DNA of 64,000 nt. Origin: a virus. Position numbers and translations under genes: made by a program. This document shows, piece by piece, positions 17,201 through 63,027 of the stretch (positions are counted from its first letter, which is position 1; the number at the start of each line of letters is the position of its first letter). The DNA lies in the IMG/VR virus record IMGVR_UViG_3300002446_000114, positions 1,047-65,046 of that record. One strand, written 5' to 3'. The notes beneath the pieces are model-generated. The model searched no databases, had not been told where the DNA came from, and was given only the letters and a program-made list of their open reading frames with translations.

Positions 17201-20200
17201 TTAAGCTAACTAAACAAACTGTTGATGGTCTCGAGGATTCACTCATTGCCGTCGCCGGTAACCCTGTGCTGTCAGGTAAAGTGAGTGATCTTTCAGTTGA
17301 TTTCAATTTGGATCTGGCTAAGAGAGGAATCAAGACTGTTGAAGCAAGTCTAAGGACCATCGAGCAGACTGAGTATGATATCAAATTTAAGTTCGATGAA
17401 GAGATTAGTCGCATTAAGGCGGAAGCAGTTAGGCATTTAGGTAGATTTTCAGATCTGTCAGGCGACACTGCCGCCGTTGAAGCAAGACGATTAAAGATCG
17501 TCAAATCGGTTACTGACTTCTATGATCAACAGATCTCCAAGCTAGCGGCTATCAATTCAACTGCTAAAAAGATAGAGTCTAATCAGGTTAATCAACTCAG
17601 GCAGTTAGTTAATGAAGAAGAGGCGACTCGCAAGATCAATGAACTCCTTAGAGAAGGTGAGTTCATTTCGGCTAAGCTGGTTGATCTGGCTGAGAAGGAA
17701 AACTCAGCTCGCCATAATTCATTTGGCTTATCTGAAAGAGCAAGTCTTTACAAGGAGACAGCTGCCCAGGCAACTAAGTATGCTAATCGTCTTGACTCTA
17801 TCACTGCAAAGGTTGCTGAGTACAATGAGGAATTGTCCTTTCAATCTATACAACAGATTAGAGCCACTGCCAGTCTCAAACAAGCAGAGACAGGCTTCAG
17901 ATCTTACGCCAGAGGTATCTCGGAGGCTGAGAAAAGAAGTGCAGATTTTGATAAGAAGATAGATCAAACAGCACAGAGTCTTAAGATTCTTGCAGCGTCG
18001 AGTTCCTTACTTCAGGCCGGTGATTTAGATTTGTCAGTTGATTTTGATTTTCAGGCAGCTAAGTCCGACTTGAAAGCTCTGGATAAGATGCTTGAGGAAA
18101 TTACTAAGAAGAAGCGCCTCGCTGTGATTGAGATATCTGATGAGACGAGACAAGCATCTATAGAAGCAAGAAGTAGCACTGGTCGATTCACTGGCACGCC
18201 AGCGAGTGAAATTGATTCAAAACTACTTTCTATCGAGACTGAGATTCAAAGCCGCTATGAGAGAAGGATTGAGCAGCTCGATGAAATAGAGCAAAAGTTA
18301 TTTGATATTATCAACACGCAAGGTCGTGTTCTTACGAATGAAGTCAAGCAAGAGGAATTAAGAAGATCCTCTGTCAAGGAGATTGATAAGATTCAAGGAG
18401 CCACTGGTCGCGTGAGAATCGCGGCTGAGGGGGTCGATCGAGCATTTAAGGATCTCTCAAGTAATTTAAACTCAGCGAACTCAACATCTAGCTTTTTTAG
18501 TCACATCAGTTCGATGGCTAACTCAGCTCAGCGATCGATCCGAGAATCTAAAGTCGAGCTCGAAGATCTTGAGCGTCAAGGTGCTCAGCTTGACACTAAT
18601 CAGATTCAGTTAAAGAATTCCACCAATCAACTAGAGCAGGAGTTCATTCAACTAGCTAACTCTACAAAAAGTCTTGAGGACTTTTTGAAGCAACTTGATA
18701 AGACGGTTGATGACGTTGAAAAATCCTTTAACGTCCTGGCAGCACATCCAGTGTTTAACGGTAGGAAGCTGGACATAAATGTTAAGTCAGATAGAGACAT
18801 TGGGCAGAAGTTGCTTAAGGATCTCGAAGGTGCGATGGCCAAGATAGAGGCTAAGGATCTTGATCTTCAGGTTGATCTTCAGCTTAACCTCAGTAAGTTG
18901 AAAAAAGATCGGGCGGCCATGGAAGGCATCTTCAAGAACATGCTTCCTAAAGATGCCGACAATAAGCTCAATGCAGCTACCCAAGCACTCGTCTTTGAAG
19001 CCAGTAGAGCATGGATAGAGATCAACAAGACGAGGCAAGCGGCTAAAGATCTGTTCGACAGTAAATATCAAGATCTTTTTAACTTTAACGAGGACATTAA
19101 AGATCTTGAAAAGGTCGACAAGCTGATGGATCGTATTGATAAGGCTCAGTTGTCAATCAAGAGAAATTCTGAGAGACAGCAAATGGCCGAAGGTATGATG
19201 TCGTCTGGTGACAATCTACAGGCTATTGCTGGCATCCAACAGATGCAAAAAGTAGGCTCAGAAGCCAGGTCTATCGGAGACAAGATTCTTGAGCTTGACA
19301 TGGAAGTCAGAGAGTTAACTGCCTCGAACATTAAGTTAACTACATCTCAGAGGCAGAAGGTAGATGCCCTTCTAAGTGAAAGAGGCGCATTGCTACAATT
19401 AGATGCTGCGGTTCGTAAGCGCAATGAACAGCTTGAGCGACAAAAGAGACTTGAGATCGAAGTTGGTCAAGCGCTTCAACTTTACAACGATCGCACAGCA
19501 GACTCTATTCGCGGTCAGTTTGCGTTCATCAATGCACTTACAGTCGTGACCTCAGTTGTGTTTGGCGTTCGCATGGCCTTTACAGAACTGATTAACGAGT
19601 CAAGGGCGTTCGCACGTACACTCACAGTAATGGAATCAAAGACAAATGATTTTGCCACTGTCTATGAGAACCTCAAGACTGTGACCAGAGAGGTGTCTGT
19701 TGAGTTTGGTAGGAGCATTGACGAGGTTGCTGAGATTGTGAAGCAGTTTGGTTCGGCTGGCTTCTCAGCTGAAGAGGCAATGTCAGCTCTTAGATCCACC
19801 ACACAGTTGATTGTGGCTACTAATGGTGATGCAGAGACATCTGCTCGTGCAATTGCTGGTATCTATCGTGTGTTCGGAAAAGAACTTAAGCAGACTGGAT
19901 CTGACATGGCCGCCTTCGCACGCATCAATGATGTGTTGTTAGGTGTCTATAAATATCACCAGGCTGAGCTTGATGAGATGGTTCAGGGCTTCAGGTTCGC
20001 TGGTAGCGCTTCGAAGCTGGCGGGCTTTACATTTTCAGAAACCTCAGCAATGCTCGCTGTTCTTAACGACAACATGATCAAGTCGGGAACGGCAGGTCGC
20101 GGGCTTCAGGTAGTTTTGGCTCAGGTAGCTGCGAAGTCAGACCAGTTTCAGGCCGCCTTTGGAGTCACTATCGATCGGGGCGCGCCATTGACCGATCAGT

Positions 20201-27144: not shown

Positions 27145-30100
27145 CATTTGTTAAGAACAGAAGAGGAAGTGACCAGATAGCGTTTAACCGGATTGCTTTT
27201 GATCTGGTCACTGACTCTGGTCAAACGGACCTGTCTGATTTTAGGCCAGGACTGTCACTGATCTGGGACGTTGATCTTAACTTCTCCACTCTACTTACTG
27301 GAACAAGAAATATTTTCATGGGACAGGGAGCTGAGTTTTCTTTTCAAGATAGCCTAGATAATTCCGACAAGAGCCTTTATGTGGAGTACAATGCGTCGGG
27401 AGAGTCAGAGCTCAGGGTTTCTTACTCGAGCTCCTTGAGTGGGCTAGTAGTTATACTCACTCAGGTGGATGGTGTTGTTTCAATTAGCGGCAGTACGTTC
27501 GACGAAGTTGATACATATCTGTGGAAGATTATTGATGGAGTTGGTGAGCCTGGTTATTCAAGGAAGCTCCGCTTAACAGTTGTTTCTGGGTCTATTTACC
27601 TTTCTGTGCAAAAAGATGGAAAATGGTTTGTTCCTTTTATTGCCGGCGTAGCTGGTATCCAGAGAGCTGTCTTTCCAATGCCAGTCGGACCAGAAGATGA
27701 TTTGGATTATGTTTATGAGTATTTGAGCCTGGAGGTTAATACCTTCACCATAAATGGTAGTTTCTCTGTAAAGTCGTCATTTGATCCTATTGTTTATCTT
27801 GACACGCCTCAGCTAGACACGGCACCCTTCTGTCACTTCGAAGCTGATAACGGCAAGGCCCTTAGTTTCACATGTTCAGATCTTGCAGAAGGTGAGCATA
27901 CATTAAGTTACCTTAATGAAGAGTATCTGCTGTACGTTACTTCGAACTACGACTCAAGAGATTACCCTATTCTAATGCCATCCTCAGTGGCAAACCTAAT
28001 CTGCGAATCAGGGTCTGTGTTGATCTGTCAAGACGAGGCGATTGCTGGTGCCGACAATATCGGTAACATGACAGTTTACCCAATGTGTTGTTTTGAAGAC
28101 GGCTCCTTGAGAGACGCTACCCCATTTGATGTGGCTGTAAGTCGCTCCGGCTACTTGACACAACAAGACGATCGGACTCAGCTTCCCGACTTTCTAATTA
28201 GAGAAGCTGATGGCCAGACCTATGGTTGTAACTTTGAGTTCCAGAGAATATTTAAAAACGAATGGGCATTTGAGCATCAACCAATAGTAATGCGACAGTG
28301 TAAGTGGTCCACAGGGCGTAGAGTTTTTTACGGACTGACATCTCAAGACACAACTTTGTCTGGGGATATTTCGATAGACATATCATTTACCCACTTTAGC
28401 CGTGACCTGACGGACTTCGGAATTCCAGGTTTCTTTTCAGACTCGGCGTACGTGGTTAAAGTCATTCGTGAAGATTATGAGCAAATCTTTACCTCTGGGA
28501 TCATTCAAGATCCAGTGTTCTCTTTGAGTCAGATACTCACTTTACCTGGCGATCCGTTTGGGAGATTCTTCATAGAGATAAGTTTTTTTAGTTTCTTTGA
28601 GAGCGCAGGCAATGAATTTTTTCTTTTTCCAATAAAGGGAATGAGAGCCCAGGTTGAGGTCTATCGAGGAGCTGACTTGATTGAGCAAGCTACCTTTGAA
28701 GTCTTGCACGACATGTTCATAGATGGCTATGGGTACATTCCTGTCGCTGAACCCACTGACGTAGGTCGTACAGATGCCCCTTACAGTAGTGCATTTCCGT
28801 TCCACACCAGAAACAAACTTCATTTTGAACTGATGCCACTTGAGGCTGATATTGTATTAGCTTACTACGATCCATCAACGTCATCTCTTTCAAGTTACAG
28901 CAGTGGAGAAGCGGTATCACCCTCTGTTAAGCTAACTAAAGTATTAACTAAGACGCGATCGATCTCAGCCATCGAGCTTAGCAGCGGTCATATTTGTATC
29001 TTCTATCGACTCAAAGATAGTGCACTTGAAAATCCATTCTTTGATTCATTTGAAAACAATTACATCAACTATGATGTGGTTGACATCGATACTGGCGTCA
29101 TTGTTTATGGCGGGCGTATTGAGTTCGAGAGCTACCTTGGCGACACTCATTCGCTGTACGCGTTTGAAGTCGTTCGAGAGAACGAAAGTGTTCTAATCAT
29201 CACATCCTGGCGCGACATGGACAACAAGGTTCCAAGGCCGTCCAACCAGCACCCTCTAATTACTTACCCAATCTCGCCAAGCTCGGTTGACGGATCTAAG
29301 GTGTTCTCTATTTCATGGAACACGGCGTTCTTGACAGACACCACTCGACTCAGTACAGCGACTGCCGACTTCAGTTTGAATGACATTATACAAGCTCAAA
29401 GACTTTTGAACGCAGATTACTATGCAAGAGTTCGAGGTCGAAACTTGGATATGAAGTTTGCCTTGGCAGGCACAATGAGAGCTCACTACTGTGATGAGAT
29501 GGACTTAACGGTACTGTCTCTTGTCGACAACTCATCAAGACAGCCTTTGGTTTTAATGGGCAAGGCGGGTCGTTTTAAGCCAGTCGCGTCACCAGCTTTT
29601 TTTAATACCAACACCTATGATGTGTACACCCGTTCTTTTCGAATAGACGCAGTTAGTTCGGTGATTGGTCATGACGGTATGATTTATGGATTGGCAACAA
29701 GAGGCTCTTGGATTCAGCTTGGGGTCATTGACCCGTCTATCTACTGGCGAGCAAATGCTACTTTGATAAATGCTGAGCAGCCTTACGCGACAAGGTTCGG
29801 TCAGGAAGAAGAGGTTGATGATATTCAGTACCCTAACTGGACTAAGAAGGATTTTACTGATTACTTCATTTCAATTCTGTCTGACAAGACTAGTGAGATT
29901 TTGTCTTTCATGTCAGGTACTATTGTCCAGCCAGTTATTGTTGATCTGGCGATGCATCAGCATTACATGACATTTTCATTCGGTAGCGAAATTCCATTTC
30001 CATTTCAGAATGAGAATTGGTATCCGCTAATTGCTTTTCAAAATGGCCATTTAGACTCTGCGCCTAATGAAACAACATGTGCATTTTCATGGCAACCTCA

Positions 30101-32006: not shown

Positions 32007-35000
32007 GATACCTTTCGTTAATAGTGCCTGAAAAGATTTACACTGAGAATGTAGGTACAGACTCAGGTGAAGAGCATATCAAGTTAACCTCACACGACGA
32101 TGGCCCAGAAATTTCCTTTCTTAGAAAAGGAGACTCTGCGTCGCAGGGATTGCCGCTTTCGGTTTTACCAAAGACAGGGATACCAGGCGGGGTCTTTAAC
32201 CGATCTAAGTCAAGAAGGTTAATGACCAGAAAGATCTTTTTACCATACAAGTTGGCGGTCAGTTTTGAAGAGGAGCCAACTAATGAAGATTTTTATGGAG
32301 TCACAGAGCTAGGTGTTCGTAAGTTCATGCGGAGTACCTTTAGTGATCCCATGACAACAGACACTCGTGGATCTAAGCATCGCAACAGTAGAATTTTTTC
32401 TTTTGAGGGTGATCTTTTTTACCTATGCGAGCAAAGGGTTTCATTCGGATCTAACTTTGCTACCGTTCCAAAGATTTTCAAGTACGATAAGTCACTGGAC
32501 GAGTTCCAGTTCTATCATGTTTTTGATGATCCTGTTTCGATTTACAGGTCAGCTTCCAATGATACTCAATTTGGATCTCCAGATTACTTTGTGTTCAAAG
32601 GAATGCTTCATGTGGGTTATCGAGTAATCAATAAAGATGCCAGGCGAAATGAGATTTTGATTTGGAGACAGACCAAGCAGGGTCAATGGATCAAGCTTTC
32701 TACTTTGCCCATCCTGAACTCGTTTGATAATCTTGAGGTTAAGAGTCTTAAGATCAGAATAGCAACGTCCTCTGACGCAATCATGGTTGTGTATTATTCG
32801 ATAGATCAGTTCAATCGAGGGGCCCAACCTAGGGAAAGACATGACATGCGAAGTTATGTCTCCTACGACGGTGTGAACTTTACAAGTAAAAGTAAGTCAT
32901 TTGACACTATTTCTCTTGATGGAAATGGGAACTTTCTCAATGGCCTTAACGTATCTAACATGGCGTATCATTTCATTCCTCGCCAAGAGTACACAGGTGA
33001 TAATAGTGTTTTGGTTGGTTCCAATGTCAACTTTGCTTTGTACTATGACACTACATTAGCATCGTTTGTTATTTTGAAGTCTGGAGATCCAGCTGGGAAG
33101 ATAGATCCATTGACAGGCGTAGCTGATTTAAATGGTAATGACACTTGGCTGATGGGTATCAAGACGGTTGATGGCGACTACAGTACGTGGGAAAACTGTG
33201 TCAATTTTGAGCTCTCACCAAGTAACACAGGTATCCTTCCAGACGAGTCAGGGATAGTGTTCGGGTCACCTGATACCAATTCCGAATTAGATTCCATGAC
33301 ATACCGGCTTAGGATCATCGACATTGATGTTGTGCCTGGCATTGAAACTAATGTCATGGCGATCACCTGGCGTGAGTTCAATGGCCATGACAGTAGATCA
33401 GGGACTTGTTTAAATGAGTTTGAGTTCGTGTCGGCTGATCAGATCGAGGCTGGCTCTGATGACTATCATTACGAAGTAGGATCTAAGTCTCATCCAGAGT
33501 GGTCTTTCCTGACCAGGCGTTTCGATCCCGACGCATGTGGCCTGTTCGGGGGAGGTACGTATTCGGTTCCACCCGTGACTGCCTATGTGAATTCGATTTC
33601 AATCTGTCGATGGCGAGAACAGATCGTTGTAACTTCTTTTTCTAACTTCAGAGTTGTTTTCACGATGTTTAGCCAGTGGCAAAACGTTTCGGAAAACTCA
33701 GGTTATCAAGTCGCTTACAGTGGTATCTTTGGACCTGTTACAAGGTTTTCATATGTTGATCAGGTAGGTGGCACCTACAATAGTGTCAACTCAACTTATC
33801 TATTCACAGCTGCATCTGGAGCTATATTCTTAGCGAACTCAGGATCTCCAATTACACCAGATCTCCTGTCCCTGAATCACCCCACGAAACTCTCAAGGTT
33901 AGCGACAAAGGTTAGGTTTGTGGTCTCTGTAGTAGATGGAAGCAATGCCGAGGTTTTGACGGTTCGGCTAAAATCTATTCTTGAGAATGTTGATGTAACG
34001 ATCAGTCTCGAGATTGGTGAGATATTTGTCTTCACAGACATTGGCAGCGGAGATGTTCTTCACACTGAGTGGGCGGTTCCAGTAACTGATTGGTCATTGC
34101 CGTATGAGTTTATTTTTGGGAATAGTGGTGCGAGTATTTATTTGTACTATCGCTTGGTAGGTACAGACAAATTCTTTTTAGCTGGGAAAACAACTGTAGT
34201 CCCAACTGGAGCTTCTCTTGGCCCGTTCGGACATGTGCTCGTTGGTGCGCTAGGTGGGACAAGTGATGTTGTCTTTTACGATCTCCAAATTGGTACTTAC
34301 AACAAGGCTCACCGAGCTACCTTCGCTGACTCATTAAACTTTTCGACGTCAGAGCTTGGTAACAGATCCTTGAGTGGGCCCAATTGCCCCACAGTGAAGT
34401 GCGCTGAGTTGCCTTTTGAATTGATGGATGGATCTTTAGTTAGCTTAAGAGGCATACCTCAAATGAGTTCTGCGGATCTTGAGATCTACAAGTACGAGTT
34501 TGTAAGTAGCGAGACATCGAATACTCCGGTTAGCCTGGTGGATGGCCTATCAGATCGTCTTTTCGACGTTACGAAAAGTCATTCGATCTTAGATCATTGT
34601 CACTGCTATAAGTCAGCGCCTCCACTTGATTCAAATGACACTGATTACGGATATCAGTTTTTGTTCAGAAAAGAACCTAGAATCTTTGACGCCTTCTCCC
34701 TGATCAATGCTTTTGGATTCCACTGTTTCAATCTGATTCTTGGTGAGCATGATGGAACTTCATGGACATCTGTAACTGGCCAGGTTAAGTACAAGCTGAC
34801 ACGCAAGGAGCTCACTACATACGAGGTGCAGGGGGCTTCTTTTTCGGTCTCAGACATTTTCGACCAGGGGCAAATTATTGGATATTGTGTAATGAAGTAT
34901 TCCACAATAAGTGAAACTTACGAAGACACTTTTCAGGTCAAGAGGAACTTTCAGCGAGTCATCATTCTTGATCGTGACATTGGCGTGTTCGAAGAACATC

Positions 35001-39787: not shown

Positions 39788-40174
39788 ATGAAGCCATCTG
39801 GTTTGGATCTTAGAATTTTTTACAGACGATTTGAAACTCTTTTTGAACGATTGACAGGTCAAGATTTCAAGTGGAATTCAGGGGAGAAGGGTAAATATGT
39901 CAATGGATACATTCGTATGTGCGAAGCCATGGGAGTAAGGGATGAGTCTCGCATTGAAGAAATGGTTGATCTTTACATGCAGCTACTGGAGTCACAGTTG
40001 GTTTCGTGGTGGCGATGGCCAAAGGCTACTCGAGTAAACTTGTTCGGATTCATTACTAATCTTGATCAGATTAAGATTTTTGCAGGCAAAAAGAAACAGC
40101 CATTCCTGAAAATGTCGTCGGCTATGGAGACTGGGTCCGTTGGGACAGAAACTCAGGCTGACTGGGATATTTAG
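39788..40174 (+). CDS. Hypothetical protein upstream of the helicase loader
   Basis: 128-aa ORF with RBS AAGGAG. Confidence 0.6.
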   Translation: MKPSGLDLRIFYRRFETLFERLTGQDFKWNSGEKGKYVNGYIRMCEAMGVRDESRIEEMVDLYMQLLESQLVSWWRWPKATRVNLFGFITNLDQIKIFAGKKKQPFLKMSSAMETGSVGTETQADWDI

Positions 40175-40183
40175 TTAGCTTAA
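40170..40183. promoter_or_regulatory. 14-bp motif copy TTTAGTTAGCTTAA, upstream of the DnaC-like gene
   Basis: Exact match; overlaps the upstream stop codon. Confidence 0.8.
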
Positions 40184-46800: not shown

Positions 46801-47143
46801 TGATGACAACGTGCGTACTTATAAAAGTACCTCGTTGAAGAAAGTATCAGACGGTGAGTATGTTTTTATAGGAGGTCGAGTCACTTCCCTGTATTCTCGT
46901 CAGACGGTCAAAGGAGATTGGTACGCGAGAATGATTGTTGAAGACATTGATGAAAGATACGCTGTCATGCTTTGGAGTGGCTTTTGGGATCGAGAGATCC
47001 TGGACAAAGAAGGTCGTCGCCCGATGGTGGGTGACATTGTTCAGGTTGTTGGCAAGAAGACCACCTTTAAAGACATGATTCAAATAGGTCTTGATGACGA
47101 AGAAGATGACGTTGGTATCGTATGGAGATTGGAAGAATGGTAA
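43826..47143 (+). CDS. dnaE: DNA polymerase III alpha subunit
   Basis: RGLARGSAAGAL, LFFERFLNPDR, catalytic PDIDLDF, KFDLL, GLIVYQEQ, YSFNKAHA, C-terminal OB fold; N-terminal PHP domain. Confidence 0.97.
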   Translation: MSEITVSLQNYTTYSVYSGYGSPAQWAASAAASGLKALAITDKQNLIGAIEFQKECQKVGVKPILGEEFILVGSIKEQDTSSGVILLYAKDEVGWNNLVILNNISNRRTQGGLNNKAGFYFRPRIDLETLREFSEGLVCVAPPEQSIGAMFVGGKAGKWEWDPSSESVFKKLHQIFGDDFYVGINPRLHGSGSFFEMINDMHRQLRMKKVYTFNCHSFSSDFNYLYPVLRKLSGKNSTSADREVYQAHLPSPDEKLKVPRASHEQMVAHMEEIVEKCNFTIKTGIYQMPPIFLRKGNSTLEEEIIQMIGEGFKTKLCPSAKFKKLTDFDQLEPYADEYPYEHLARGESPEILKPLSVYINQIRYEFKVIKELGFLDYFHTVKAFCDFVDSIGKHNRGLARGSAAGALFSYLLHIVRIDPVRHDLFFERFLNPDRQEIPDIDLDFSTVARDALKVFIAERYGEDSLVLIGTTKRLKVISAIKTLARIYGNGVPDNSGNIVTYNDWTLRSIISNKHVNQTKRGRDELNEYIEEYEDFRAFYHLHRDWIEKFVMPLQEAVDGFSIHASGSLVLPAHVDECLPIREDGRGNVITHFNHKDCESAGFPKFDLLVVDVFDIINYTSKLVKKRHGVDVPEWEDIPIDDKATLQVYNTDPEGLFQFKTSSFRKLLKTMKIRQFEDTVALVALNRPGPIAAGAPEEFANIRNGKAQPQYLLEALEPILRETVGLIVYQEQMMRTAVALSGFDGKEADHLRKATGKKLPQEMAKWEDRFVQGGVANGHDEQTMLQLWFQIVGFAEYSFNKAHAVSYAGNAWYQAYIKARYPLEFYCGVLNSAKTDGKDNSVTSIKKKAESQGIEFVLPAMEAFATDFEPFGDNKIFWPMWALKGIGEKALDNLRSLHVNSFGSIEEMVDSLDSKVWTKKVFETLIKADFFRSLGRPWEVMAMYFEVRSRKMKKKVVEDIPFEYCHQNNFKWILAKNEAYDTQVESWKKLAPFDDNVRTYKSTSLKKVSDGEYVFIGGRVTSLYSRQTVKGDWYARMIVEDIDERYAVMLWSGFWDREILDKEGRRPMVGDIVQVVGKKTTFKDMIQIGLDDEEDDVGIVWRLEEW

Positions 47144-47760
47144 AGAAGAAAAGTATCGTAGAAACTATTGAAGCTGCCTTGCATCCTGACATTGACACGC
47201 TTGAAGACGCACCTCCCCTGATGATAGATCTTGGTGAGGTACTGAGTCTTGTGAATCACCTGTCAACAGATCCCATGACAGTGAGCTCCCTACTGTTGAA
47301 GTATCAGGCCATGTTCAAGATCCTTGAAGCTCATCTCCAGGGGTGTGTTGAGGATCTCTACAACGTCAGGCGTGAATTTGCCGACACCTATGTTGATCTG
47401 TTTAGTAGTAATGATCCTTCGAATCCTTACTTCAACAAGAAGAAACTGACCGATCAGACTATCAAATCAGCGGTAGGATCGATGCCAGTCTTTAAAGAGA
47501 TTACTCGTAATCTTGTTCGGCATCAGAAGCAGTTGATGAAAGTCAGGGCCATTAGAGAGAGTTTGGACTCCACCGTTTTTATGGTGAGAACCTTAGTTGC
47601 GAAATCGCAGATCTCATTCTCAGGTGAGGTACTTGAAGCGGATGATGTTTCAGAGCAGTTGGCTGCCCTGGAAGATCTTATCAATAAGATCTCTCCAGAA
47701 GAATTTACCCGCTATTATCGGCAGCGACATATGGCGGAAGATCCAGAACATGATTTTTAA
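47122..47760 (+). CDS. Helical hypothetical protein, possibly a UvsY-like recombination mediator
   Basis: Coiled-coil character with KKLTDQTIKSAV; next to SSB-like and RecA genes. Confidence 0.4.
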   Translation: MEIGRMVKKKSIVETIEAALHPDIDTLEDAPPLMIDLGEVLSLVNHLSTDPMTVSSLLLKYQAMFKILEAHLQGCVEDLYNVRREFADTYVDLFSSNDPSNPYFNKKKLTDQTIKSAVGSMPVFKEITRNLVRHQKQLMKVRAIRESLDSTVFMVRTLVAKSQISFSGEVLEADDVSEQLAALEDLINKISPEEFTRYYRQRHMAEDPEHDF

Positions 47761-49345: not shown

Positions 49346-49373
49346 AAGCGCCAGGGTAAAACCTGGCGCTTTT
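49346..49373 (+). terminator. Terminator hairpin after the SSB-like gene
   Basis: 10-bp stem AAGCGCCAGG/CCTGGCGCTT with loop GTAAAA and a short T run. Confidence 0.75.
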
Positions 49374-49385
49374 AAGTTAACTAAA
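49372..49385. promoter_or_regulatory. 14-bp motif copy TTAAGTTAACTAAA, between the terminator and recA
   Basis: Exact match; intergenic. Confidence 0.8.
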
Positions 49386-51200: not shown

Positions 51201-52170
51201 GTTCAATGAGGAAGACTATGACTTCCTTCTGTTCTTAGGAGACTGGACGGACTACCCCACGCTAGACCCTGTGACCCAGACGGTTTCGTCTGAGTTGTTG
51301 GCCAGGATAATGAGTGAGACTCATTCGATCCTCATCGAAGGTAACCATTGTATCTCGGATACGAAAGGAGCCTATACTGTTCTAGGGGCTGCGAAGCCAT
51401 TCTTTGAACTGTCAGGAGAAGACAATCATCAGTCACTTGTCACTACGAACCAGGTCATCGATCTTGACTGGGTAAAGTTTCATTGCTTTCCATACTCAAG
51501 TGACTTCGAGCAGCTTCAAAAAGATATCGCAAAAGCCAATGACGAGAGCGAGGACAGTCGAGCTTACAATATTATGTTGTTTCACTTTCCAACAACCAAT
51601 GCTGTTCTCGACAATCAGCTTCAGTCAAAGAAAGGAGTTGCTCTTGTTGATGAAATCATTTGCCATTTTGACATTGTGATCGGAGGTGATTTTCATCGTC
51701 CCCAACAATTGATAGGAACGGAGAATGCTTTTTACGTTGGGTCTCCATTTGATTTTAATTACGGAGACCATGTTGAAGAGAGGGGAGCTATGTCGGTTAT
51801 CTTCGAAGACAATGGGGACATCTGTGTTGATCTCATTGATAATCCATTTCGACCAAAGATTCAGAAGATTACAGCGGACGAAGCGATTAAGCTAACTAAA
51901 CATGAGCTTGAAAATAATGTCTATCGGGTAGTCGGTGAAGATGTTGACTACGATACGAAGGCACAGCTGATGGAGATGAGAGAGCGAGCCTATCGATTGG
52001 ATCTTGCACTCAGAAAGAAAACTGAAATCACTCATGGTGAGAACGTTCGTATAGTTGACTCAGTTGATCCTAAGAGTGATGTTGATTTCTTGACAGAAGT
52101 TATTTCTGATCATACCAGGGCAGATAAGCTGGTTGCTATTTTTAGAGAAGTTCGATTAGCGTGTCTATAA
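51073..52170 (+). CDS. sbcD: SbcD/Mre11/gp47-like metallophosphoesterase nuclease
   Basis: FSDLH, FLGDW, IEGNHC, LFHF and GGDFH motifs; GGAG before ATG 51073. Confidence 0.92.
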   Translation: MSIKLLCFSDLHLTNRNPKFKVTNGVSDLLHRQAQFVNWLIDKFNEEDYDFLLFLGDWTDYPTLDPVTQTVSSELLARIMSETHSILIEGNHCISDTKGAYTVLGAAKPFFELSGEDNHQSLVTTNQVIDLDWVKFHCFPYSSDFEQLQKDIAKANDESEDSRAYNIMLFHFPTTNAVLDNQLQSKKGVALVDEIICHFDIVIGGDFHRPQQLIGTENAFYVGSPFDFNYGDHVEERGAMSVIFEDNGDICVDLIDNPFRPKIQKITADEAIKLTKHELENNVYRVVGEDVDYDTKAQLMEMRERAYRLDLALRKKTEITHGENVRIVDSVDPKSDVDFLTEVISDHTRADKLVAIFREVRLACL

Positions 52171-54796: not shown

Positions 54797-55654
54797 ATGG
54801 CTAAGTTATATGTCGGAGCTCACGAAGAAAGGGTATTTACCCTTCTGAACGCAAGGCGTTTTGTTTCCTTTATTGAAGAGCATAACTATCAAACTCAATA
54901 TTGTGTTGGGGCAGATCTCTCAATGAATGGTACTGGTTTTGTCTGCTGCACACAAGACAACGATGTTAAGCTTGTCAAAACATTTAGCAATAAAGTCGTT
55001 CCTTATACAAGATCCTCAATTGCTCTGTACCTGAACGACTTAAGTAAGTTGGTTCAGAGCTTTTGCTCTCAGATGAGAGAGGCAGATCTTCCGGCAACAG
55101 GGGCCGATCCTACCAAGGTTCTTCTTGTCTACGAGGAAGTGAATGTTGGCTCTAACTTTACAGGGATGCTTGGCGTCGCCAGGTCTCAAGCAGCGTCACT
55201 CGTGGGCTGGGCGAATGGGGTAGGAGCTAGGAGCGAGAATGATATCCTGGCAGTACCAGTGAGTAACCTTCAGATCAAGAAAGTCTTGGGCGGACATAAG
55301 AAGTCAACCAAAGAAGATTTGATGGCACTCACCCTTAAAAACTTTGGGCACAATTTCAAAGATGATAACCAGGCTGATGCCTTTGGAGCTTCACTAATCG
55401 GGATTGCTTTAATCATGTTCGCGCATGAAGTTGCAGCTTCCGATCTGTCACCACACATGTCTCCAAAAGACTTGCGAGATGGCTTTAAAGAATTGTCTGA
55501 TGACTGGCATGAAAGAATTTGGGAAGTCGCTGAGAGTCAATTTAAGAAGTCGCGTTTTTTCGCTAGCCTGGGACTAAGGAAAGTCAATGATCAGATCAGC
55601 AAAGAGTTTCTACAGCTTGGACTTGGCAAGAAAAGCACTGGCGCTGCTGGGTAA
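54797..55654 (+). CDS. ruvC: RuvC-like Holliday junction resolvase (start refined from 54656)
   Basis: VGADLSMNGTG, VYEE, IKKVLGG...KEDLM and DDNQADAFG give the RNase H-fold acidic residues. Confidence 0.85.
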   Translation: MAKLYVGAHEERVFTLLNARRFVSFIEEHNYQTQYCVGADLSMNGTGFVCCTQDNDVKLVKTFSNKVVPYTRSSIALYLNDLSKLVQSFCSQMREADLPATGADPTKVLLVYEEVNVGSNFTGMLGVARSQAASLVGWANGVGARSENDILAVPVSNLQIKKVLGGHKKSTKEDLMALTLKNFGHNFKDDNQADAFGASLIGIALIMFAHEVAASDLSPHMSPKDLRDGFKELSDDWHERIWEVAESQFKKSRFFASLGLRKVNDQISKEFLQLGLGKKSTGAAG

Positions 55655-55673
55655 AAATCCAGATGAGTTTCAG

Positions 55674-55982
55674 ATGCCGAGTTGTCATCTGGAACATGGT
55701 GAACTTGTTGAGACTAAGAAGTGCGTCACACGGTGTAAGAGACCGTGTTTTCATTTCTTGAACTTCGAATTCATTACCAATGGATGTGCCCATGATGGGT
55801 GTTCAAATGAGTTTCCATGCGCTGCGTGCCTTTCGAAAATTGATGATCAAAAAATGTGGATCAAAATGATTATCGCGTGCTATACACCTTTTGTTCACAG
55901 TCACAAACGGCAACACAAGGCACCTCCATCCGCCTCCCAACAGAGGACAAGGAAGGTGAGAATATTGATGAAGAGGAAGTGA
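55674..55982 (+). CDS. Cys/His-rich hypothetical protein
   Basis: Many Cys (CH, CVTRC, CAHDGC, CAAC). Its TGA overlaps ATG 55982 (TGATG coupling). Start uncertain. Confidence 0.4.
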   Translation: MPSCHLEHGELVETKKCVTRCKRPCFHFLNFEFITNGCAHDGCSNEFPCAACLSKIDDQKMWIKMIIACYTPFVHSHKRQHKAPPSASQQRTRKVRILMKRK

Positions 55983-56800
55983 TGAAGTTCCTATACAAGA
56001 TTATCGATTCTAATTTTTCGTACAAGTTACCTAGCTTAGATCGGGCTGAGAGTAATCTTTTCAAGTTTCAACTCCCAGCACACGACTCAATTAACTTTGT
56101 TTTTGAGTATGCCGATTTTGAGTTTTCGTACGACGACAGTGTGTGCTCATCAGCTTTTGTTTTCGAGGCAATGGTCGACTGGAATGTTGTGGTGGTTGTG
56201 AATACAAACAGCTCAGCAGAATTGTGGGAAACTTTAGTTAACTTAAACAACATGAAGTTGGCTGCCATGTTAACTCAGCAGCTTCTTCACACCCACTTCA
56301 ATGTCTTTGTGAACTCTGGAGAAGTAGCTCCAAAGTTTAAGCAGTTCATTGTAGCCATCCCAGAGTCCCCCCATGCAGTTGAGTTTATGAACTCGTACCA
56401 TGAATGGGTTAGATTGGCTGAAGAGATATCTGGACTAGCTGAAGTCTGGAGTCGAATTGACAATACGGGTATCAATAACATTAGCCCATCTGTCTTAAAC
56501 CTTTCCTATTTTATCCTACACATGACATGTTTTTCGGCATTGCAGTTGGATCCAGAATGGCTAGAAGAATCACACGTTTGTGGTCCATTTATCTCCTACC
56601 ACAAGGAGAATCTGTTGCCAGTTTGTCAGTTATTTTACAATCTGATTGAAGATCAAAAGGCTGGCCCGTACCTTGATAGATCCCTTGATCTCATAGCTGA
56701 TTTCTTCTCCGAGGAAACCACTATGAACATTTTAGAAACTATTCAACAAGTCGGCTGCTTCAGTGTAGCAAGTCGCACGAGTTGGTTAAACCGGAAGTAG
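55982..56800 (+). CDS. Hypothetical protein (alternative GTG start at 55856)
   Basis: Long ORF before the RNR gene; GAGGAAG precedes ATG 55982. Confidence 0.6.
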   Translation: MKFLYKIIDSNFSYKLPSLDRAESNLFKFQLPAHDSINFVFEYADFEFSYDDSVCSSAFVFEAMVDWNVVVVVNTNSSAELWETLVNLNNMKLAAMLTQQLLHTHFNVFVNSGEVAPKFKQFIVAIPESPHAVEFMNSYHEWVRLAEEISGLAEVWSRIDNTGINNISPSVLNLSYFILHMTCFSALQLDPEWLEESHVCGPFISYHKENLLPVCQLFYNLIEDQKAGPYLDRSLDLIADFFSEETTMNILETIQQVGCFSVASRTSWLNRK

Positions 56801-56807
56801 GTAGAAC

Positions 56808-58724
56808 ATGGAGCTTGGCGCGCTTAATCTGTCAAAATTTGTGACTTGGGATAAGTATGCAAAGTACCTTCCTCATGAAAACAGAAAAGAAACCTGGGAT
56901 GAGACTTGCGATCGTGTTCGAGATGGTTTTCTGACAAAGTATGGTCACATCAGCGAGGAATTCTCAGCGGAGATTGTTAAGAATTGCGAGTACATTCGAC
57001 GTAAAGAGGTTTTCGGATCGATGCGGTTTCTTCAGTTCGGAGGTGTCGCTGTTGAAGCCAATAACGCCAGGACATTTAACTGTTCTTTTCAACCAGTCGA
57101 CGCTATCGACGCATTCTCAGAGAATCTATTTCTCCTTCTTTCAGGGTGCGGAGTAGGTTACAGTGTTGAACATCATCACATCAACAAGCTACCGCCTCTC
57201 ATGCTTAGTGACACCACTCAAGCCTATGCGATTGAGGACACTATTGAAGGTTGGGCGGACTCTGCTTATGTGCTCATCTCAAGTTATTTAGGCGGGACTT
57301 CACCTCGCCCTATTTTTGATTACAGTAAAATTCGTCAGAAGAATTCTCTGCTGATGACAACAGGTGGACTCGCACCTGGACCAGAGCCTCTTAAGAAAGC
57401 CCTTGAACAGATTGAAGATCTACTCAAGAGAGCAGTCAGATCGTATCAGAAAAGACTTACATCGTTGGATTGCCACGACATCATGTGCTTCCTGGCAGAC
57501 GCGGTCATGGCTGGTGGTATCAGGCGAGCTGCGATGATTGCCTTGTTCGACCTCGATGATGAGTTGATGCTTCATTGTAAGGATCCAGAAAATTACGTTT
57601 CGTGGGGTGACAACAAGATTAACTCTCAGCGGGGTCGGTCAAACAATTCAGCTGTTGTTTACACTTATGAACTTGAAGATCCTGAGAACTATAAGAAGTT
57701 CGTCAAGCTCATGAAGATCTGTCAGCTTTCAGGTGTTGGTGAGCCTGGTATCATTTTTTCAGCAGATCCTCACAAGCAAAGTGGATTCAATCCATGCGTT
57801 GAAGCGTTTCTGATGAGTAATACTTTCTGCAACCTCACAACCATTGTGGCTACGCACGTCACCGATCAAGATAAGTTCAATGAACTTGTGAAGGTAGCTG
57901 CTTTCCTTGGCACACTTCAGGCTGGGTTTACATCGAACCTTTCTAACTACCTGCGAAGGGTTTGGAAGATTGCTACCGAGCGAGATTCTCTTATTGGTGT
58001 TAGCATCACTGGTATCGCTTATGGTAATCTGGATAATCTGAACAAGAGCGAGGCTGCCAGGTGTGTGCTTCAGGAAAACGAGCGTGTTGCTAGAATCATT
58101 GGAATTAACCCAGCGGCTCGCACCACATTGTTGAAGCCGGAGGGCTCAGCTACTCTAGCAGCAGGTCTAGGTGACTGTCCAGGGATTCACGCTGGCAATG
58201 GAGAGTACCTCAAGCGTCGATGCGGTGTGCCTAAGTCTTCTGAGGTGGCTGGGCACATAAGGGGATATCATCCTGAGATGTATGAGGACTCTGTTTACAA
58301 TGACAACGATGCCTTCCTGGTGTTTCCTCTCAAGAATGGGAAGGACACTCTTACACAAGACAAGGAAGACGCGATTGGTTTCTTGACTCGAGTTTTGGAC
58401 TATGCCATCAACTGGATTCAACCAGGTCATCGACGTGGGTATAACACTCATAATGTCTCGGCAACCTGTCGAGTGAATGAGCACGAGTGGGATGACGTCA
58501 TTGAGTTTGTCTGGAAGAATCGATTTAACCTGTCTGGTTTATCTTTCTTCCCTGCCATGAATAACTCTGCTTTTCCTCAGCTGATCTATGAGGTCATCAC
58601 CAAGGAAGAATACGAAGAGTTTTCAGCAAAAATGACCGAGATTTTTCCTGAGACTATTTGGTTGAACCATGGGTTTAATGTGGCCCAGGAGCCTGCGTGT
58701 GCGGGGGGAGCCTGTGAGATCTGA
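56808..58724 (+). CDS. nrdJ: Class II (adenosylcobalamin-dependent) ribonucleotide reductase
   Basis: FNCSF, GFNPCVE, FCNLT, TLLKPEGS, C-terminal CAGGACEI; no beta-subunit gene adjacent. Confidence 0.93.
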   Translation: MELGALNLSKFVTWDKYAKYLPHENRKETWDETCDRVRDGFLTKYGHISEEFSAEIVKNCEYIRRKEVFGSMRFLQFGGVAVEANNARTFNCSFQPVDAIDAFSENLFLLLSGCGVGYSVEHHHINKLPPLMLSDTTQAYAIEDTIEGWADSAYVLISSYLGGTSPRPIFDYSKIRQKNSLLMTTGGLAPGPEPLKKALEQIEDLLKRAVRSYQKRLTSLDCHDIMCFLADAVMAGGIRRAAMIALFDLDDELMLHCKDPENYVSWGDNKINSQRGRSNNSAVVYTYELEDPENYKKFVKLMKICQLSGVGEPGIIFSADPHKQSGFNPCVEAFLMSNTFCNLTTIVATHVTDQDKFNELVKVAAFLGTLQAGFTSNLSNYLRRVWKIATERDSLIGVSITGIAYGNLDNLNKSEAARCVLQENERVARIIGINPAARTTLLKPEGSATLAAGLGDCPGIHAGNGEYLKRRCGVPKSSEVAGHIRGYHPEMYEDSVYNDNDAFLVFPLKNGKDTLTQDKEDAIGFLTRVLDYAINWIQPGHRRGYNTHNVSATCRVNEHEWDDVIEFVWKNRFNLSGLSFFPAMNNSAFPQLIYEVITKEEYEEFSAKMTEIFPETIWLNHGFNVAQEPACAGGACEI

Positions 58725-58725
58725 T

Positions 58726-59724
58726 ATGTTTTCATGGCCAGGAACTCCAAAGGAGCCAACGGCGTTTGATTTTTCAAACGAACCTCCAGTTCATTCCTTT
58801 AACTGCATTAAACCAATTCGTCAGATCATGATGGATTCGACGCCACATGTAGTTCGCAAGGACGGCAGGACTGTACCTAAGTTTGATAATCTGTACGTGC
58901 CTATGGCTTACTCAGGAGATCCTTTCTGGCGAATGGGGTGTAAGAATGGTTTTTTGAATCACTCTTACACCCCATTCATTGCGATGCTCTACACAATCAA
59001 GTGTCAGTCCGATTGGCTGATGTCTGAACTAAGCGGAATGATTGTTACAAAGGAAGACTTTGTTCAAATCCGAATGGAGTTTAACGACTTGTTTTCAAAG
59101 TTGAGAGAGAACAGGGGGGCAGGTCGACATGGCTCTGCCTCCGAGGATGAGTTCTTTCGACTTGGCTACCTCTTTTTTGTGCTGGCAGAGACCAGCGACT
59201 CCTCATTGGGTTTGATGATTTCAGCCTTCGGTGAGTTTAATAATCCATGGATAGGATCTGACTCCTATTCTTTTTCAGCTTTGAAAATTAGTACTATCCG
59301 GCACTGGTCATTGAAGCTGCAAGATGTAGTCTTGTCGGACCTAAACTGGAAAGCATTTTACTTTAGACATTTGGGTAAGAGCGACGATCACTCTTTCTGG
59401 TTCTTTAACTTCCCGACACTGGATCCATTTACTTTTAATCACATGATGGAAGCAAAGACCGACGACTTCTTTGAGTTTGTTTTAAGTTACCTTAAGACAC
59501 TCAGCTCGAGAGGGGTCAGGACAATGATTACGGTCCCAGCCTCTACTCAGCGAATGACAGATATATTTAAAAGACTTGATCTTGCGCCATCAGATAATTT
59601 CATGCGCAACAACGACATCATTGTACAGCCTGTTGAGACAATAGACTGTGTTGAATCGTTTAGATTGATTATCACGAATTACTTTCCGTCACACAATAAA
59701 GCGTTTGAAATGGTGGCTAAATGA
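58726..59724 (+). CDS. Dam/D12-family adenine methyltransferase homologue with degenerate catalytic motifs
   Basis: Colinear with E. coli/T4 Dam as recalled: IRMEFN, FRLGYLFFVL, GEFNNPW, LKTLSSRGV, LIITNY. Motif I reads VPMAYSGDPF and motif IV reads NFPT instead of DPPY. Confidence 0.7.
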   Translation: MFSWPGTPKEPTAFDFSNEPPVHSFNCIKPIRQIMMDSTPHVVRKDGRTVPKFDNLYVPMAYSGDPFWRMGCKNGFLNHSYTPFIAMLYTIKCQSDWLMSELSGMIVTKEDFVQIRMEFNDLFSKLRENRGAGRHGSASEDEFFRLGYLFFVLAETSDSSLGLMISAFGEFNNPWIGSDSYSFSALKISTIRHWSLKLQDVVLSDLNWKAFYFRHLGKSDDHSFWFFNFPTLDPFTFNHMMEAKTDDFFEFVLSYLKTLSSRGVRTMITVPASTQRMTDIFKRLDLAPSDNFMRNNDIIVQPVETIDCVESFRLIITNYFPSHNKAFEMVAK

Positions 59725-60341
59725 GATTGCCAGTAAGGGAGTGCACTTCAACTTTTGACTTCACCGACTTGTCCTCAGAGCAGATGGCATGGGCAGCGAA
59801 CAACTGGTTTGGTGAGTACAAAATTCTTCTCATCATGGGGCTTGCTAAATCAGGTAAGACTACTTTGATGTCGGCCATTGAACCTATCGATGCAATGAGG
59901 ATCATGGGTAAGTGGAGCAGATCTACTGTCATAAATATGCTTGGAAAATATGAGCCGAAATACAATGGTCCGATGCAGAGATTAGAAGATGAATTATTTG
60001 CTGACTTTATCCGAAAGGATTGGTCAGTTTTGTGCATCGAATCCTTTGGTCGCAAGCTTTCAGATCGTAAACGAATCCTCAAAATCGCCAGTGCCTTTCC
60101 ATGTGCAGTCGTTGTTCTCGATGGTCAACCAACCTGGTTAGCGAACAGATTAAAGACGTCAATAAATGCTGGAGATAATAGCTGGGGAATGTTGGATTCA
60201 GAAGTGTCCTTGTGGATGCGTGACCAGTGGTTCTCAACCTCATGGCCCACATTCGAAGAGGGATGGAAGTCTATTTTTTACGTCAATACTTTTGGCGAAG
60301 CAGGTAATGATTGGTTGAGACTGACAACAAAAAATGTTTAA
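59721..60341 (+). CDS. P-loop kinase (AAA_33 / polynucleotide-kinase-like)
   Basis: IMGLAKSGKTT, RKRIL, C-terminal PTFEEGW. Confidence 0.75.
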   Translation: MRLPVRECTSTFDFTDLSSEQMAWAANNWFGEYKILLIMGLAKSGKTTLMSAIEPIDAMRIMGKWSRSTVINMLGKYEPKYNGPMQRLEDELFADFIRKDWSVLCIESFGRKLSDRKRILKIASAFPCAVVVLDGQPTWLANRLKTSINAGDNSWGMLDSEVSLWMRDQWFSTSWPTFEEGWKSIFYVNTFGEAGNDWLRLTTKNV

Positions 60342-60577
60342 CAAAACGTCAGCGACTAGTACTGATCAAGGACGTTGTTTTTCTAATCCTTCTCCTTCAT
60401 GCTGGCAGCTATCTGATGTACACGACGGTACACACCATTGTATCTGATCTGCACAGTAGAAAACGGTGGAGTGAGTTTGATTATTTTGAACTAGAAGAAA
60501 TGGTTCGAGCTCTGTCTGGAGAGCGACTCGGTATGTGGAAGATAAAGGTTCAGGGATCTTACCTGATGTTAAGTTAA
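60311..60577 (+). CDS. Small hypothetical protein
   Basis: 88-aa ORF filling the kinase-dUTPase gap; start uncertain. Confidence 0.4.
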   Translation: MVETDNKKCLTKRQRLVLIKDVVFLILLLHAGSYLMYTTVHTIVSDLHSRKRWSEFDYFELEEMVRALSGERLGMWKIKVQGSYLMLS

Positions 60578-60582: not shown

Positions 60583-60591
60583 GGAGTTAGT

Positions 60592-61439: not shown

Positions 61440-61449
61440 GTCAATTCTC

Positions 61450-61463
61450 TTAACCTAACTAAA
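61450..61463. promoter_or_regulatory. 14-bp motif copy TTAACCTAACTAAA, upstream of the DUF3310 gene
   Basis: One mismatch; intergenic. Confidence 0.65.
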
Positions 61464-61478
61464 TAAAAGGAGCACATT

Positions 61479-61892
61479 GTGTCTAGCTTTGATAATGTAA
61501 ATAAACCAACTCATTACCATGCCGGTAAAAGAATCGACTCCGACGGTCGAGCTTACTACGAGCCCGTGAAGGTCATTGCACGAAGATGCCCCGACATCTC
61601 TATCTATTGGGGGTGCTACTTCAATGTGATCAAATACCTGATGCGCTGTGACAATAAGGGTCAGATGACTGATGATATTAAGAAAGCCATCTGGTACATC
61701 AAAAAGATTCAAGAGGTCGCTGTAAAAATATCTCCAGCCCTCAGAGGAACTCCGACTCAGGATGAGGCTATTGAGCACATCTCTGAAGCCGCTGATGATT
61801 TTTCACTCAATCAAGATATCAAAAAAGCATTGGTCTTGTTCGAGCTCTATCGCTACCAAGAAGCAGTTGAAGTTCTGGAAACCTTGGTTTAG
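61479..61892 (+). CDS. DUF3310-family protein
   Basis: DNVNKPTHY...NVIKYLMRC..KG...DIKKAIWYI is the DUF3310 signature. Confidence 0.85.
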   Translation: MSSFDNVNKPTHYHAGKRIDSDGRAYYEPVKVIARRCPDISIYWGCYFNVIKYLMRCDNKGQMTDDIKKAIWYIKKIQEVAVKISPALRGTPTQDEAIEHISEAADDFSLNQDIKKALVLFELYRYQEAVEVLETLV

Positions 61893-61926
61893 TTTGTTTG
61901 ATATTAGACCTTGAGGTAAACTCATC

Positions 61927-63027
61927 ATGGCCAGACCAACTATCTACCCACAGCTATACGGCAGCGTTTTAGATACCACCGACAATAAGGTGAGTGTGTC
62001 TGCCAACGACGCCTCATCCGGCTATCTACTTGACAAGCTTGAAGCGGGTACGAACATTACTCTTACTGAGACAAATGATGGCCTGACTGAGACCGTTGTT
62101 ATCTCGTGTGACCTGGTCCAGTCACCTCCAGTAACAGTATCAGCTACAGAGCCACTTGATCCCACTGATGGCGACTTGTGGTGGGACACTTCTACTCTTG
62201 GTCTTTTTGTTTTTGATACGACATGGCAACCAACTCAGGCCGAGGCTGGAACTTCAGTTGTTGTCTCTGCTACCGAGCCTCTCGATCCAGTGGAGGGAGA
62301 CCTTTGGTGGAACACGGTCAGTCAGTCTCTGTTTGTTTTCAACACTGAGTGGGTAGAGGTTGGCGGGACAGGTGGCGGAGGAGCAAGTGTTTTAGTTAGC
62401 TTAACACCTCCGGTCGATCCCGTTGAGGGAGATCTCTGGTGGGATACTGATTCAGGTAACTTGTTCGTATGGTATGACGATGGCGACTCTCAGCAGTGGG
62501 TCATCGCTATTCAGGTGACAGACGGGCAGAGCATTGTTCCAGTTGCTGATTACATCAGCTACACAAGCGGACCCCAAACCTTTACCATCAGTGACATCCC
62601 ATACAATAGCTACCTAGCTGTTTACATCAATGGGGCCAGGGTAAATAGCTCGCAGTGGACTCTATCTGGGGATCAAGTGACAATACTGACCACACTTGAT
62701 CCAGGCGATGAGGTCGCCTTTGATTTTTTTACACTGGCATCGGGGTCTAACTACGTCCCCACAACTTTCGCCAGTGTGAATGATCTGATGGTCGCTTCGC
62801 AATCTGGGTTAGCTCCAGGGTTTTATCAGGTTGGTGAGCAAATTTCATACTGGGATGGTATCTCTTTTGATCCCTACGTTGAGCAGGCTCCACTGGCGTC
62901 CTTTGGTGCCGTAGTTAATCAGAGCTACTCTGTCGTTGATAGTTACGCTTCACCATTAACTGATTTGGCGTTCTCCGAGTATAATGGGTCTAACATGGAC
63001 ACTGGCACAATCTGGACAACACTATGA
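61927..63027 (+). CDS. Virion structural/fibre-associated protein with three SATEP..P..GDLWW repeats
   Basis: Three repeats at about 62130-62510, typical of phage fibre proteins; GTGGGG linker. Confidence 0.7.
   Translation: MARPTIYPQLYGSVLDTTDNKVSVSANDASSGYLLDKLEAGTNITLTETNDGLTETVVISCDLVQSPPVTVSATEPLDPTDGDLWWDTSTLGLFVFDTTWQPTQAEAGTSVVVSATEPLDPVEGDLWWNTVSQSLFVFNTEWVEVGGTGGGGASVLVSLTPPVDPVEGDLWWDTDSGNLFVWYDDGDSQQWVIAIQVTDGQSIVPVADYISYTSGPQTFTISDIPYNSYLAVYINGARVNSSQWTLSGDQVTILTTLDPGDEVAFDFFTLASGSNYVPTTFASVNDLMVASQSGLAPGFYQVGEQISYWDGISFDPYVEQAPLASFGAVVNQSYSVVDSYASPLTDLAFSEYNGSNMDTGTIWTTL

What the first reader, a model, noticed from the sequence alone, without database searches (positions are those of the whole stretch)
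17201..62404. Intragenic motif copies use all three reading frames and TTA/CTA Leu codons: DNA-level selection inside coding sequence
Seen: inside genes the motif is read as AAG CTA ACT AAA / AAG TTA ACT (KLT; 17201, 19331, 28927, 31546, 36845, 51887), as TTA GTT AGC/AAC TTA (LVSL/LVNL; 34435, 56233, 62391) and as TTA AGT TAC CTT / TTA AGC TAT CTT (LSYL; 2911, 27903, 59482). Unrelated proteins carry it, so a shared peptide cannot explain it. These sites use TTA/CTA for Leu, while CTT appears commoner elsewhere (impression, not counted). Inference: the sites were built into coding DNA through synonymous choice, so they likely work without being near a promoter, as roadblock or architectural sites.
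Basis: partly seen in the sequence, partly recalled or inferred. Interest (0 to 1): 0.7.

Follow-up and report, generated by a model that had tools for sequence, protein, structure and literature searches.

The report
Evenly spaced palindrome inside phage genes
An uncultured phage keeps a 14-letter DNA palindrome about every 2.4 kb, mostly inside genes where it dictates codons and often amino acids; relatives lose and regain copies so that the spacing is kept, which points to docking sites for an unidentified DNA-binding protein acting along the whole genome.

Summary
Confirmed, with one correction. All 12 listed copies are real; 5 more lie in genes (17 coding, 9 non-coding). Coding copies: 17 observed against 0.39 after synonymous shuffling. 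In relatives, codons at orthologous sites are identical in 73 of 83 cases against 33 expected. DNA-level selection is therefore shown. But the sites are not made by synonymous choice alone. The perfect dyad TTAAGYTARCTTAA has a stop codon in all six frames; coding copies must break it, and 47 of 62 carry no other mismatch. That explains the KLT, LVSL and LSYL classes. Sites turn over, nearly always with amino-acid differences, and lineage-specific sites lie in gaps: spacing CV is 0.46 against 0.95 for random placement. A distant clade carries its own evenly spaced 14-bp dyads. Best reading (0.55): loading or docking sites for a dimeric phage protein, each covering 1-2 kb, independent of promoters. 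Closest published case: Cluster O mycobacteriophage 17-bp dyads (PMC4351075), function unknown. The scan has found the same kind of array on other phage genomes before.

The parts
2911..2924 (.). coding copy, frame 0 (LSYL), prohead protease gene 2728-4227
   Evidence: kept in L001 and L003, absent in L004
4716..4729 (.). non-coding copy between decoration and major capsid genes
   Evidence: matching copies before the capsid gene in L001 and L003
7958..7971 (.). non-coding perfect copy before gene 7980
   Evidence: identical 14-mer in L001 and L003
11939..11952 (.). non-coding copy after the tail tube gene, abutting a terminator-like hairpin at 11951-11970
13269..13282 (.). non-coding perfect copy
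17201..17214 (.). coding copy, frame 1 (KLTK), tape measure gene
   Evidence: identical in L008 and L010
19331..19344 (.). coding copy, frame 1 (KLTT), tape measure gene
   Evidence: kept with changes in L008 and L010
   Evidence: kept in L010; absent in L008, which has its own copy 216 bp away
27903..27916 (.). coding copy, frame 0 (LSYL), 1621-aa gene
   Evidence: kept in L008 and L010
28927..28940 (.). coding copy, frame 1 (KLTK), 1621-aa gene
   Evidence: kept in L010, absent in L008
31546..31559 (.). coding copy, frame 1 (KLTK), found only in this phage; 533 bp from a decayed site at 32079
32079..32092 (.). decayed site (3 mismatches) whose orthologues in L008 and L010 are intact; differs from L010 only synonymously
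34435..34448 (.). coding copy, frame 2 (LVSL), 1393-aa gene
   Evidence: identical in L008
36845..36858 (.). coding copy, frame 1 (KLTS), 1118-aa gene
   Evidence: kept in L008 as KLAT
40170..40183 (.). junction copy supplying the TAG stop of the 128-aa gene before dnaC
   Evidence: a site at the same junction in L008 and, with the other clade's motif, in G006/G007
   Evidence: better match (LVSL) in L009
47757..47770 (.). junction perfect copy supplying the TAA stop of gene 47122-47760
49372..49385 (.). non-coding copy between the SSB-like and recA genes
51887..51900 (.). coding copy, frame 1 (KLTK), sbcD-like gene
   Evidence: identical in L009
   Evidence: identical in L009
56233..56246 (.). 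coding copy, frame 2 (LVNL), gene 55856-56800 (only 42% identical to its L009 orthologue)
   Evidence: kept in L009 as LVSL
59482..59495 (.). coding copy, frame 0 (LSYL), gene 58669-59724 (49% identical to its L009 orthologue)
   Evidence: identical in L009
60569..60582 (.). junction perfect copy supplying the TAA stop of ORF 60311-60577
61450..61463 (.). weaker non-coding copy
62391..62404 (.). coding copy, frame 2 (LVSL), tail-fibre-like gene 61927-63027
   Evidence: no orthologue available

Best explanation
The intragenic copies are working members of a genome-wide lattice of 14-bp dyad sites on double-stranded DNA. SHOWN: the sites are selected at DNA level inside genes, stay as close to the perfect dyad as an open frame allows, and are kept about 2.4 kb apart through loss and replacement. 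INFERRED: a dimeric, probably phage-encoded protein recognises the dyad and acts over 1-2 kb around each site (loading and sliding, spreading or bridging, in the manner of KorB/OB or Noc/NBS). A stretch without a site is then costly enough to pay for amino-acid changes, and a second site close by is redundant and decays. The likely purpose is genome-wide organisation, silencing or shielding of phage DNA in the cell, not control of single promoters. The protein and the purpose are not identified.
For: 17 coding copies against 0.39. Synonymous conservation 73/83 against 33.2 codon-matched, while flanking residues are conserved at background level. All 62 coding copies in 7 loci break the in-frame stop, 47 have no other mismatch, and 15 of 30 non-coding copies are perfect. 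Gap CV 0.46 against 0.95, none of 20000 simulations as low; CV 0.35, p=0.003 within the 25-kb all-coding block; with non-coding sites fixed, both the largest gap (p=0.0005) and the smallest gap (p=5e-5) are constrained; lineage-specific sites lie far from shared ones (mean percentile 0.74, n=13, p=0.0008). Two near-replacements, 533 and 216 bp apart. Dyad symmetry without mirror covariation.
Against: No reader found: no ParB_N match in this contig or five related records, including a complete one that lacks the lattice; no HTH or ParB family among about 90 uncharacterised ORFs of this phage and a 94.6-kb relative. Roughly 30 kb or more of the genome was not available (a 124-kb contig exists). 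Relatives show a small cluster of weaker copies in the divergent control region (L001 1729-2075), which fits an ordinary operator role. Pairwise comparisons are not independent. Spreading is inferred only from spacing.
Confidence: 0.55

Rival explanations
1. Operators and roadblocks for a phage immunity repressor (works like mycobacteriophage stoperators, but symmetric): strong or clustered sites shut the divergent promoters, and dispersed sites stop stray transcription in a prophage or plasmid state.
For: Cluster of copies in the divergent intergenic region of L001 and L003; copies at gene junctions, stops and next to a terminator; lineage-specific motifs resemble immunity groups.
Against: Sites are symmetric and two thirds are deep in genes, whereas stoperators are asymmetric, oriented and in short intergenic spaces (PMC9283540). 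No repressor or integrase was found in the DNA available. A constraint on the smallest gap is not expected for simple roadblocks.
Confidence: 0.2
2. Binding sites for a host protein (nucleoid-occlusion, macrodomain or transcription factor type) that the phage recruits or titrates; each lineage's motif reflects its host.
For: No phage reader found; the motif is unchanged across a clade down to 57% capsid identity. Unrelated small phages carry similar dyads near their divergent promoters.
Against: Sister lineages G006 and G008, both found in one sample, have different motifs; related lineages have no lattice at all; the exact motif is not reported for any host factor in the searchable papers. 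Hosts are unknown, so this could not be tested directly.
Confidence: 0.12
3. Signals for virion DNA handling: site-specific nicks, or pause or grip points for packaging or ejection of a very large genome through a very long tail.
For: Even spacing irrespective of gene content; both lattice-bearing clades have tape measures over 3200 aa.
Against: Known nick and packaging signals are mostly strand-asymmetric (own knowledge); related lineages with equally long tape measures (G001, G005) show no lattice; no helical or fixed period in the positions.
Confidence: 0.07
4. Internal promoters for a phage-modified RNA polymerase, needed every few kb along a 60-kb single-strand gene block.
For: All window genes are on one strand; several copies sit just upstream of genes.
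Against: Full dyad symmetry gives no direction; no conserved flanking element within 80 bp and no excess of promoter-like sequence (7 against 6.5).
Confidence: 0.05
5. Chance, codon bias, shared peptide or an RNA hairpin.
For: None that survived testing.
Against: Shuffles that keep proteins and codon usage give 0.39 copies; near-miss classes are at background (2 mismatches 4 against 3.1; 3 mismatches 21 against 22.6); mirror positions 6 and 9 pair in only 34 of 81 four-class cases and are if anything anti-correlated.
Confidence: 0.01

Closest known systems
17-bp dyad repeat of Cluster O mycobacteriophages (Cresawn et al. 2015, PMC4351075)
   Same: About 30 dyad copies along a phage genome, 11 of 34 clearly in coding regions, mostly not at promoters, positions largely shared among relatives, predicted to bind a dimer, function unknown.
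   Different: Other sequence, 14 bp without spacer; here two thirds are intragenic and the spacing is significantly even, while the Corndog intergenic sites are concentrated in one arm. Selection on codons, six-frame stop avoidance and compensating turnover were not reported in the passages read. Cluster O encodes a ParB-like protein; none was found here.
KorB and its OB operators on IncP plasmid RK2 (PMC13768133)
   Same: Dyad sites spread over a 60-kb replicon and conserved in position between relatives; action at a distance from promoters; the OB half-site TTTAGC resembles one variant of the half-site here.
   Different: OB is 13 bp with a single central base, here 14 bp with a central TA; 12 sites against 29 per 67 kb; no ParB/KorB gene detected here.
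DNA uptake sequences of Haemophilus and Neisseria (Findlay and Redfield 2009, PMC2817400)
   Same: A DNA motif accumulates in coding sequence in several frames and raises the frequency of the peptides it spells.
   Different: Those are non-palindromic, number in the hundreds to thousands and are read by the uptake machinery; here a rare dyad with even spacing in a phage.
Stoperators of Cluster A mycobacteriophages (PMC9283540)
   Same: More than twenty repressor sites dispersed over a phage genome, many away from promoters.
   Different: Stoperators are asymmetric 13-mers, oriented with transcription, mostly intergenic and bound by a monomer; these sites are symmetric and mostly intragenic.

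Membership tests
Cluster O-type dispersed dyad repeat | Tens of dyad-symmetric copies along the whole phage genome | tested here: met
   29 copies in 67 kb
Cluster O-type dispersed dyad repeat | Copies in both coding and non-coding DNA, most not at promoters | tested here: met
   17 coding, 9 non-coding in the window; no promoter excess
Cluster O-type dispersed dyad repeat | Positions largely shared among relatives | tested here: met
Cluster O-type dispersed dyad repeat | Same 17-bp sequence or homologous phage | tested here: not met
   Different sequence and length; capsid has no match among GenBank phages. Same kind, not the same family.
ParB/KorB-OB (parS-like) system | Palindromic site of 13-16 bp dispersed on the replicon | tested here: met
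ParB/KorB-OB (parS-like) system | ParB-family CTPase gene on the same replicon | tested here: inconclusive
   No PF02195 match in G000, G006, G007, G008 or among ORFs of the 94.6-kb relative, but all lattice-bearing records are fragments
ParB/KorB-OB (parS-like) system | CTP-dependent loading and sliding from the site | not testable with these tools
   needs the protein
Stoperators | Asymmetric site oriented with transcription | tested here: not met
   symmetric base counts over 89 copies
Stoperators | Located mainly in promoters and short intergenic spaces | tested here: not met
   62 coding against 30 non-coding copies
Stoperators | Immunity repressor that blocks elongation | not testable with these tools
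   no repressor identified
DNA uptake sequences | Motif enriches the peptides it spells in coding DNA | tested here: met
   KLTK 4 against 0.36, LSYL 3 against 0.41
DNA uptake sequences | Non-palindromic, about one per kb in a competent bacterium's chromosome | tested here: not met
   dyad in a phage genome

The most novel reading that the evidence does not exclude
A phage-encoded, non-ParB DNA-binding protein loads at a lattice whose spacing, not the position of any one site, is the selected trait: a 'phage nucleoid' system that coats, organises or shields the genome in 2-3 kb units, acquired or retuned separately in several lineages and strong enough to rewrite residues in the polymerase, portal and tail proteins.
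Probability: 0.25. Interest if true: 0.8.

Novelty: new variant of a known kind. Interest (0 to 1): 0.58.

Why it matters
Dispersed dyad repeats in phage genomes have been seen (Cluster O) but never explained. This family supplies what was missing for a test: proof of selection inside genes, evidence that gap length is the conserved quantity, two clades with different motifs and interleaved lineages with none. It also shows a short regulatory motif shaping protein sequence in essential phage genes, and warns that synonymous recoding of such genomes is not neutral.

Tried and rejected
Leu codon comparison alone: rejected as circular, replaced by shuffles and orthologue comparison. RNA hairpin or cruciform: no mirror covariation. 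Fixed or helical period: none. Promoter link: none. Copying of sites by gene conversion: flanks of lineage-specific sites follow their orthologues, and several arise where the peptide was already close; not supported. Reader search: ParB_N absent from fragments; the 128-aa gene at 39788 looks like an initiator/loader partner and the lattice-free complete genome G005 has a similar-sized gene at that place; the Cys-rich 131-aa gene at 55587 is shared with G007 and not detected in G005, but its model was poor (pLDDT 54), the fold search empty and no further relatives were found, so it is only a weak lead; the first gene of the leftward arm is also present in lattice-free relatives; the proposed dead Dam-like protein gave no Pfam, PHROG or PDB match. 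No relatives by capsid among GenBank phages or GTDB genomes, so no host. The representative search for the 128-aa protein stayed in the queue and gave no result. One script ended in an error before the G008 shuffle, so G008 has no synonymous null. The exact motif was not found in papers as a binding site.

Full report
Setting. The window is most of a 67-kb contig of an uncultured tailed phage. All genes are on the + strand: terminase, portal, protease, capsid, tail tube, a 4302-aa tape measure, then DnaC, DnaB, primase, Pol III alpha, SSB-like, RecA, SbcCD, RuvC and a class II reductase. A 124-kb contig with identical proteins exists but was not seen. The host is unknown.

Observation. I defined the consensus from the non-coding and stop-overlapping copies only (TTWAGYTARCTWAA, self-complementary) and counted coding copies at up to one mismatch: 17, spread 3/8/6 over the frames. 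Shuffling synonymous codons while keeping every protein gives 0.39 on average and never more than 3 in 1000 runs; shuffling codon order gives 0.08. Near-misses are at background, so the set is sharply bounded. TTA+CTA make 20 of 23 Leu codons in sites and 18% elsewhere; CTT is the commonest overall. That figure alone is circular.

Why three peptide classes. The perfect dyad TTAAGYTARCTTAA contains a stop in each of the three frames, and by symmetry in all six: positions 7-9, 12-14 and 2-4. A coding copy must therefore be imperfect. In seven loci, 62 coding copies all break the in-frame stop (a necessity) and 47 carry no mismatch elsewhere, while 15 of 30 non-coding copies are perfect (the one-mismatch cut-off inflates the 47 somewhat, and two ORF calls in L013 are doubtful). 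Frame 0 gives LSYL, frame 1 KLTK/KLTS, frame 2 LVSL/LVNL/EVNL. Three junction copies lend their stop to the upstream gene.

Relatives. Capsid and other searches gave relatives at 57-82% capsid identity. All carry the same motif. Where the residue is conserved, codons inside window sites are identical in 73 of 83 cases against 33.2 expected from the same codons elsewhere; background codon identity is 0.42-0.50 and flanking residues are conserved no better than average. Sites survive in genes only 42-49% identical.

Not only synonymous. Sites turn over. In 19 pairwise cases where one genome has a site and the other does not, 37 of 89 residues agree (flanks 213 of 400), and only one case is purely synonymous. 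Some of that difference can arise after a loss, but the peptides are over-represented and motif-coded (KLTK 4 of 4, LSYL 3 of 3), the same peptides recur at unrelated positions, and a portal-gene site found only in L003 sits in a stretch with 20 of 22 flanking residues identical and carries a residue the other three genomes lack. The motif shapes protein sequence, as DNA uptake sequences do (PMC2817400).

Spacing is the conserved trait. The 29 sites of the contig are 2365 bp apart on average with CV 0.46 against 0.95 for random placement. This is not an effect of gene boundaries: CV is 0.35 (p=0.003) in the 25-kb block with no intergenic DNA, and with non-coding sites fixed the coding ones avoid both long gaps (p=0.0005) and short ones (p=5e-5). 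Lineage-specific sites lie far from shared ones (p=0.0008, n=13, not independent). This phage alone lacks the site at 32079 and alone has one at 31546; L008 lacks the 24093 site and has one 216 bp away. There is no fixed period, no conserved flank, no promoter excess and no mirror covariation, which points to recognition of double-stranded DNA by a dimer, not to a hairpin or promoter.

Other lineages. Distant relatives (tube 42-43% identical) carry their own 14-bp dyads: TTAACCNNGGTTAA, 20 and 24 copies, gaps 2.4-2.6 kb, CV 0.35 and 0.48, 12-15 coding copies against 0.3-0.4, with the same stop-avoiding mismatches; and TGAACYTARGTTCA in a sister lineage. Other branches, including a complete 177-kb genome, show no such lattice by my scans. 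On the portal tree the two lattice clades are separated by lattice-free branches, so the system was gained twice or lost several times; the deep root is unresolved.

Mechanism. Shown: DNA-level selection, minimal deviation, even spacing with replacement, lineage-specific variants. Inferred: a dimeric reader, probably phage-encoded, whose effect reaches 1-2 kb from each site, so that coverage is what is selected (0.55). KorB on RK2 is the best worked-out model of that behaviour, and its operator has a similar half-site (PMC13768133), but no ParB domain was found in the fragments held. A repressor with operator and roadblock sites is the main rival (0.2), helped by a small cluster of weaker copies in the divergent control region of relatives but unlike true stoperators in symmetry and position (PMC9283540). 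Host factor, virion-DNA signal and internal promoter are less likely.

Novelty. The kind is published: Cluster O mycobacteriophages carry over 30 copies of a 17-bp dyad, 11 in coding regions, function unknown (PMC4351075). Earlier reports of this scan describe similar arrays in other phages; I used them as leads only. What this case adds, on my own tests, is the six-frame stop rule, the measured synonymous constraint and the compensating turnover that keeps the spacing. Verdict: real, selected, a new variant of a known but unexplained kind; interest 0.58.

Noticed in passing
G006/G007 (L130, L149-L154) and G008/L139: Distant relatives carry different evenly spaced 14-bp dyads; sister lineages from one sample differ in motif, and a site sits at the junction before dnaC in both clades.
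   Followed up: yes
L001:1729-2075; L003:1955-2592: Cluster of three to four weaker copies in the divergent intergenic region between the two genome arms, a departure from even spacing that may mark true operators or the origin.
   Followed up: partly
L033, L117, L030, L124, L127: Small unrelated phages carry three to four similar dyads around a divergent control region; probably ordinary repressor operators that converge on the sequence.
   Followed up: partly
window 55587-55982: 131-aa Cys-rich protein with a basic tail, shared with the other lattice clade (G007) and not detected in the lattice-free complete genome G005; weak candidate reader.
   Followed up: partly
window 39788-40174: 128-aa gene before dnaC; Atlas neighbours are phage initiator-like (Phg_2220_C) proteins; its stop codon is part of a motif copy.
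   Followed up: partly
window 58669-59724: Protein proposed elsewhere as a dead Dam homologue; no Pfam, PHROG or PDB sequence match here; a weak homologue is present in G005.
   Followed up: partly
G001 (L143-L148): 103-kb relative whose IMG/VR id looks like that of an isolate or single-cell genome (inference from the id form); could give a host for the wider family. It lacks the lattice.
   Followed up: no
window 72-1067 and contig upstream: The terminase large subunit starts upstream of the window; the contig holds two more motif copies there and one beyond the window's right end.
   Followed up: yes
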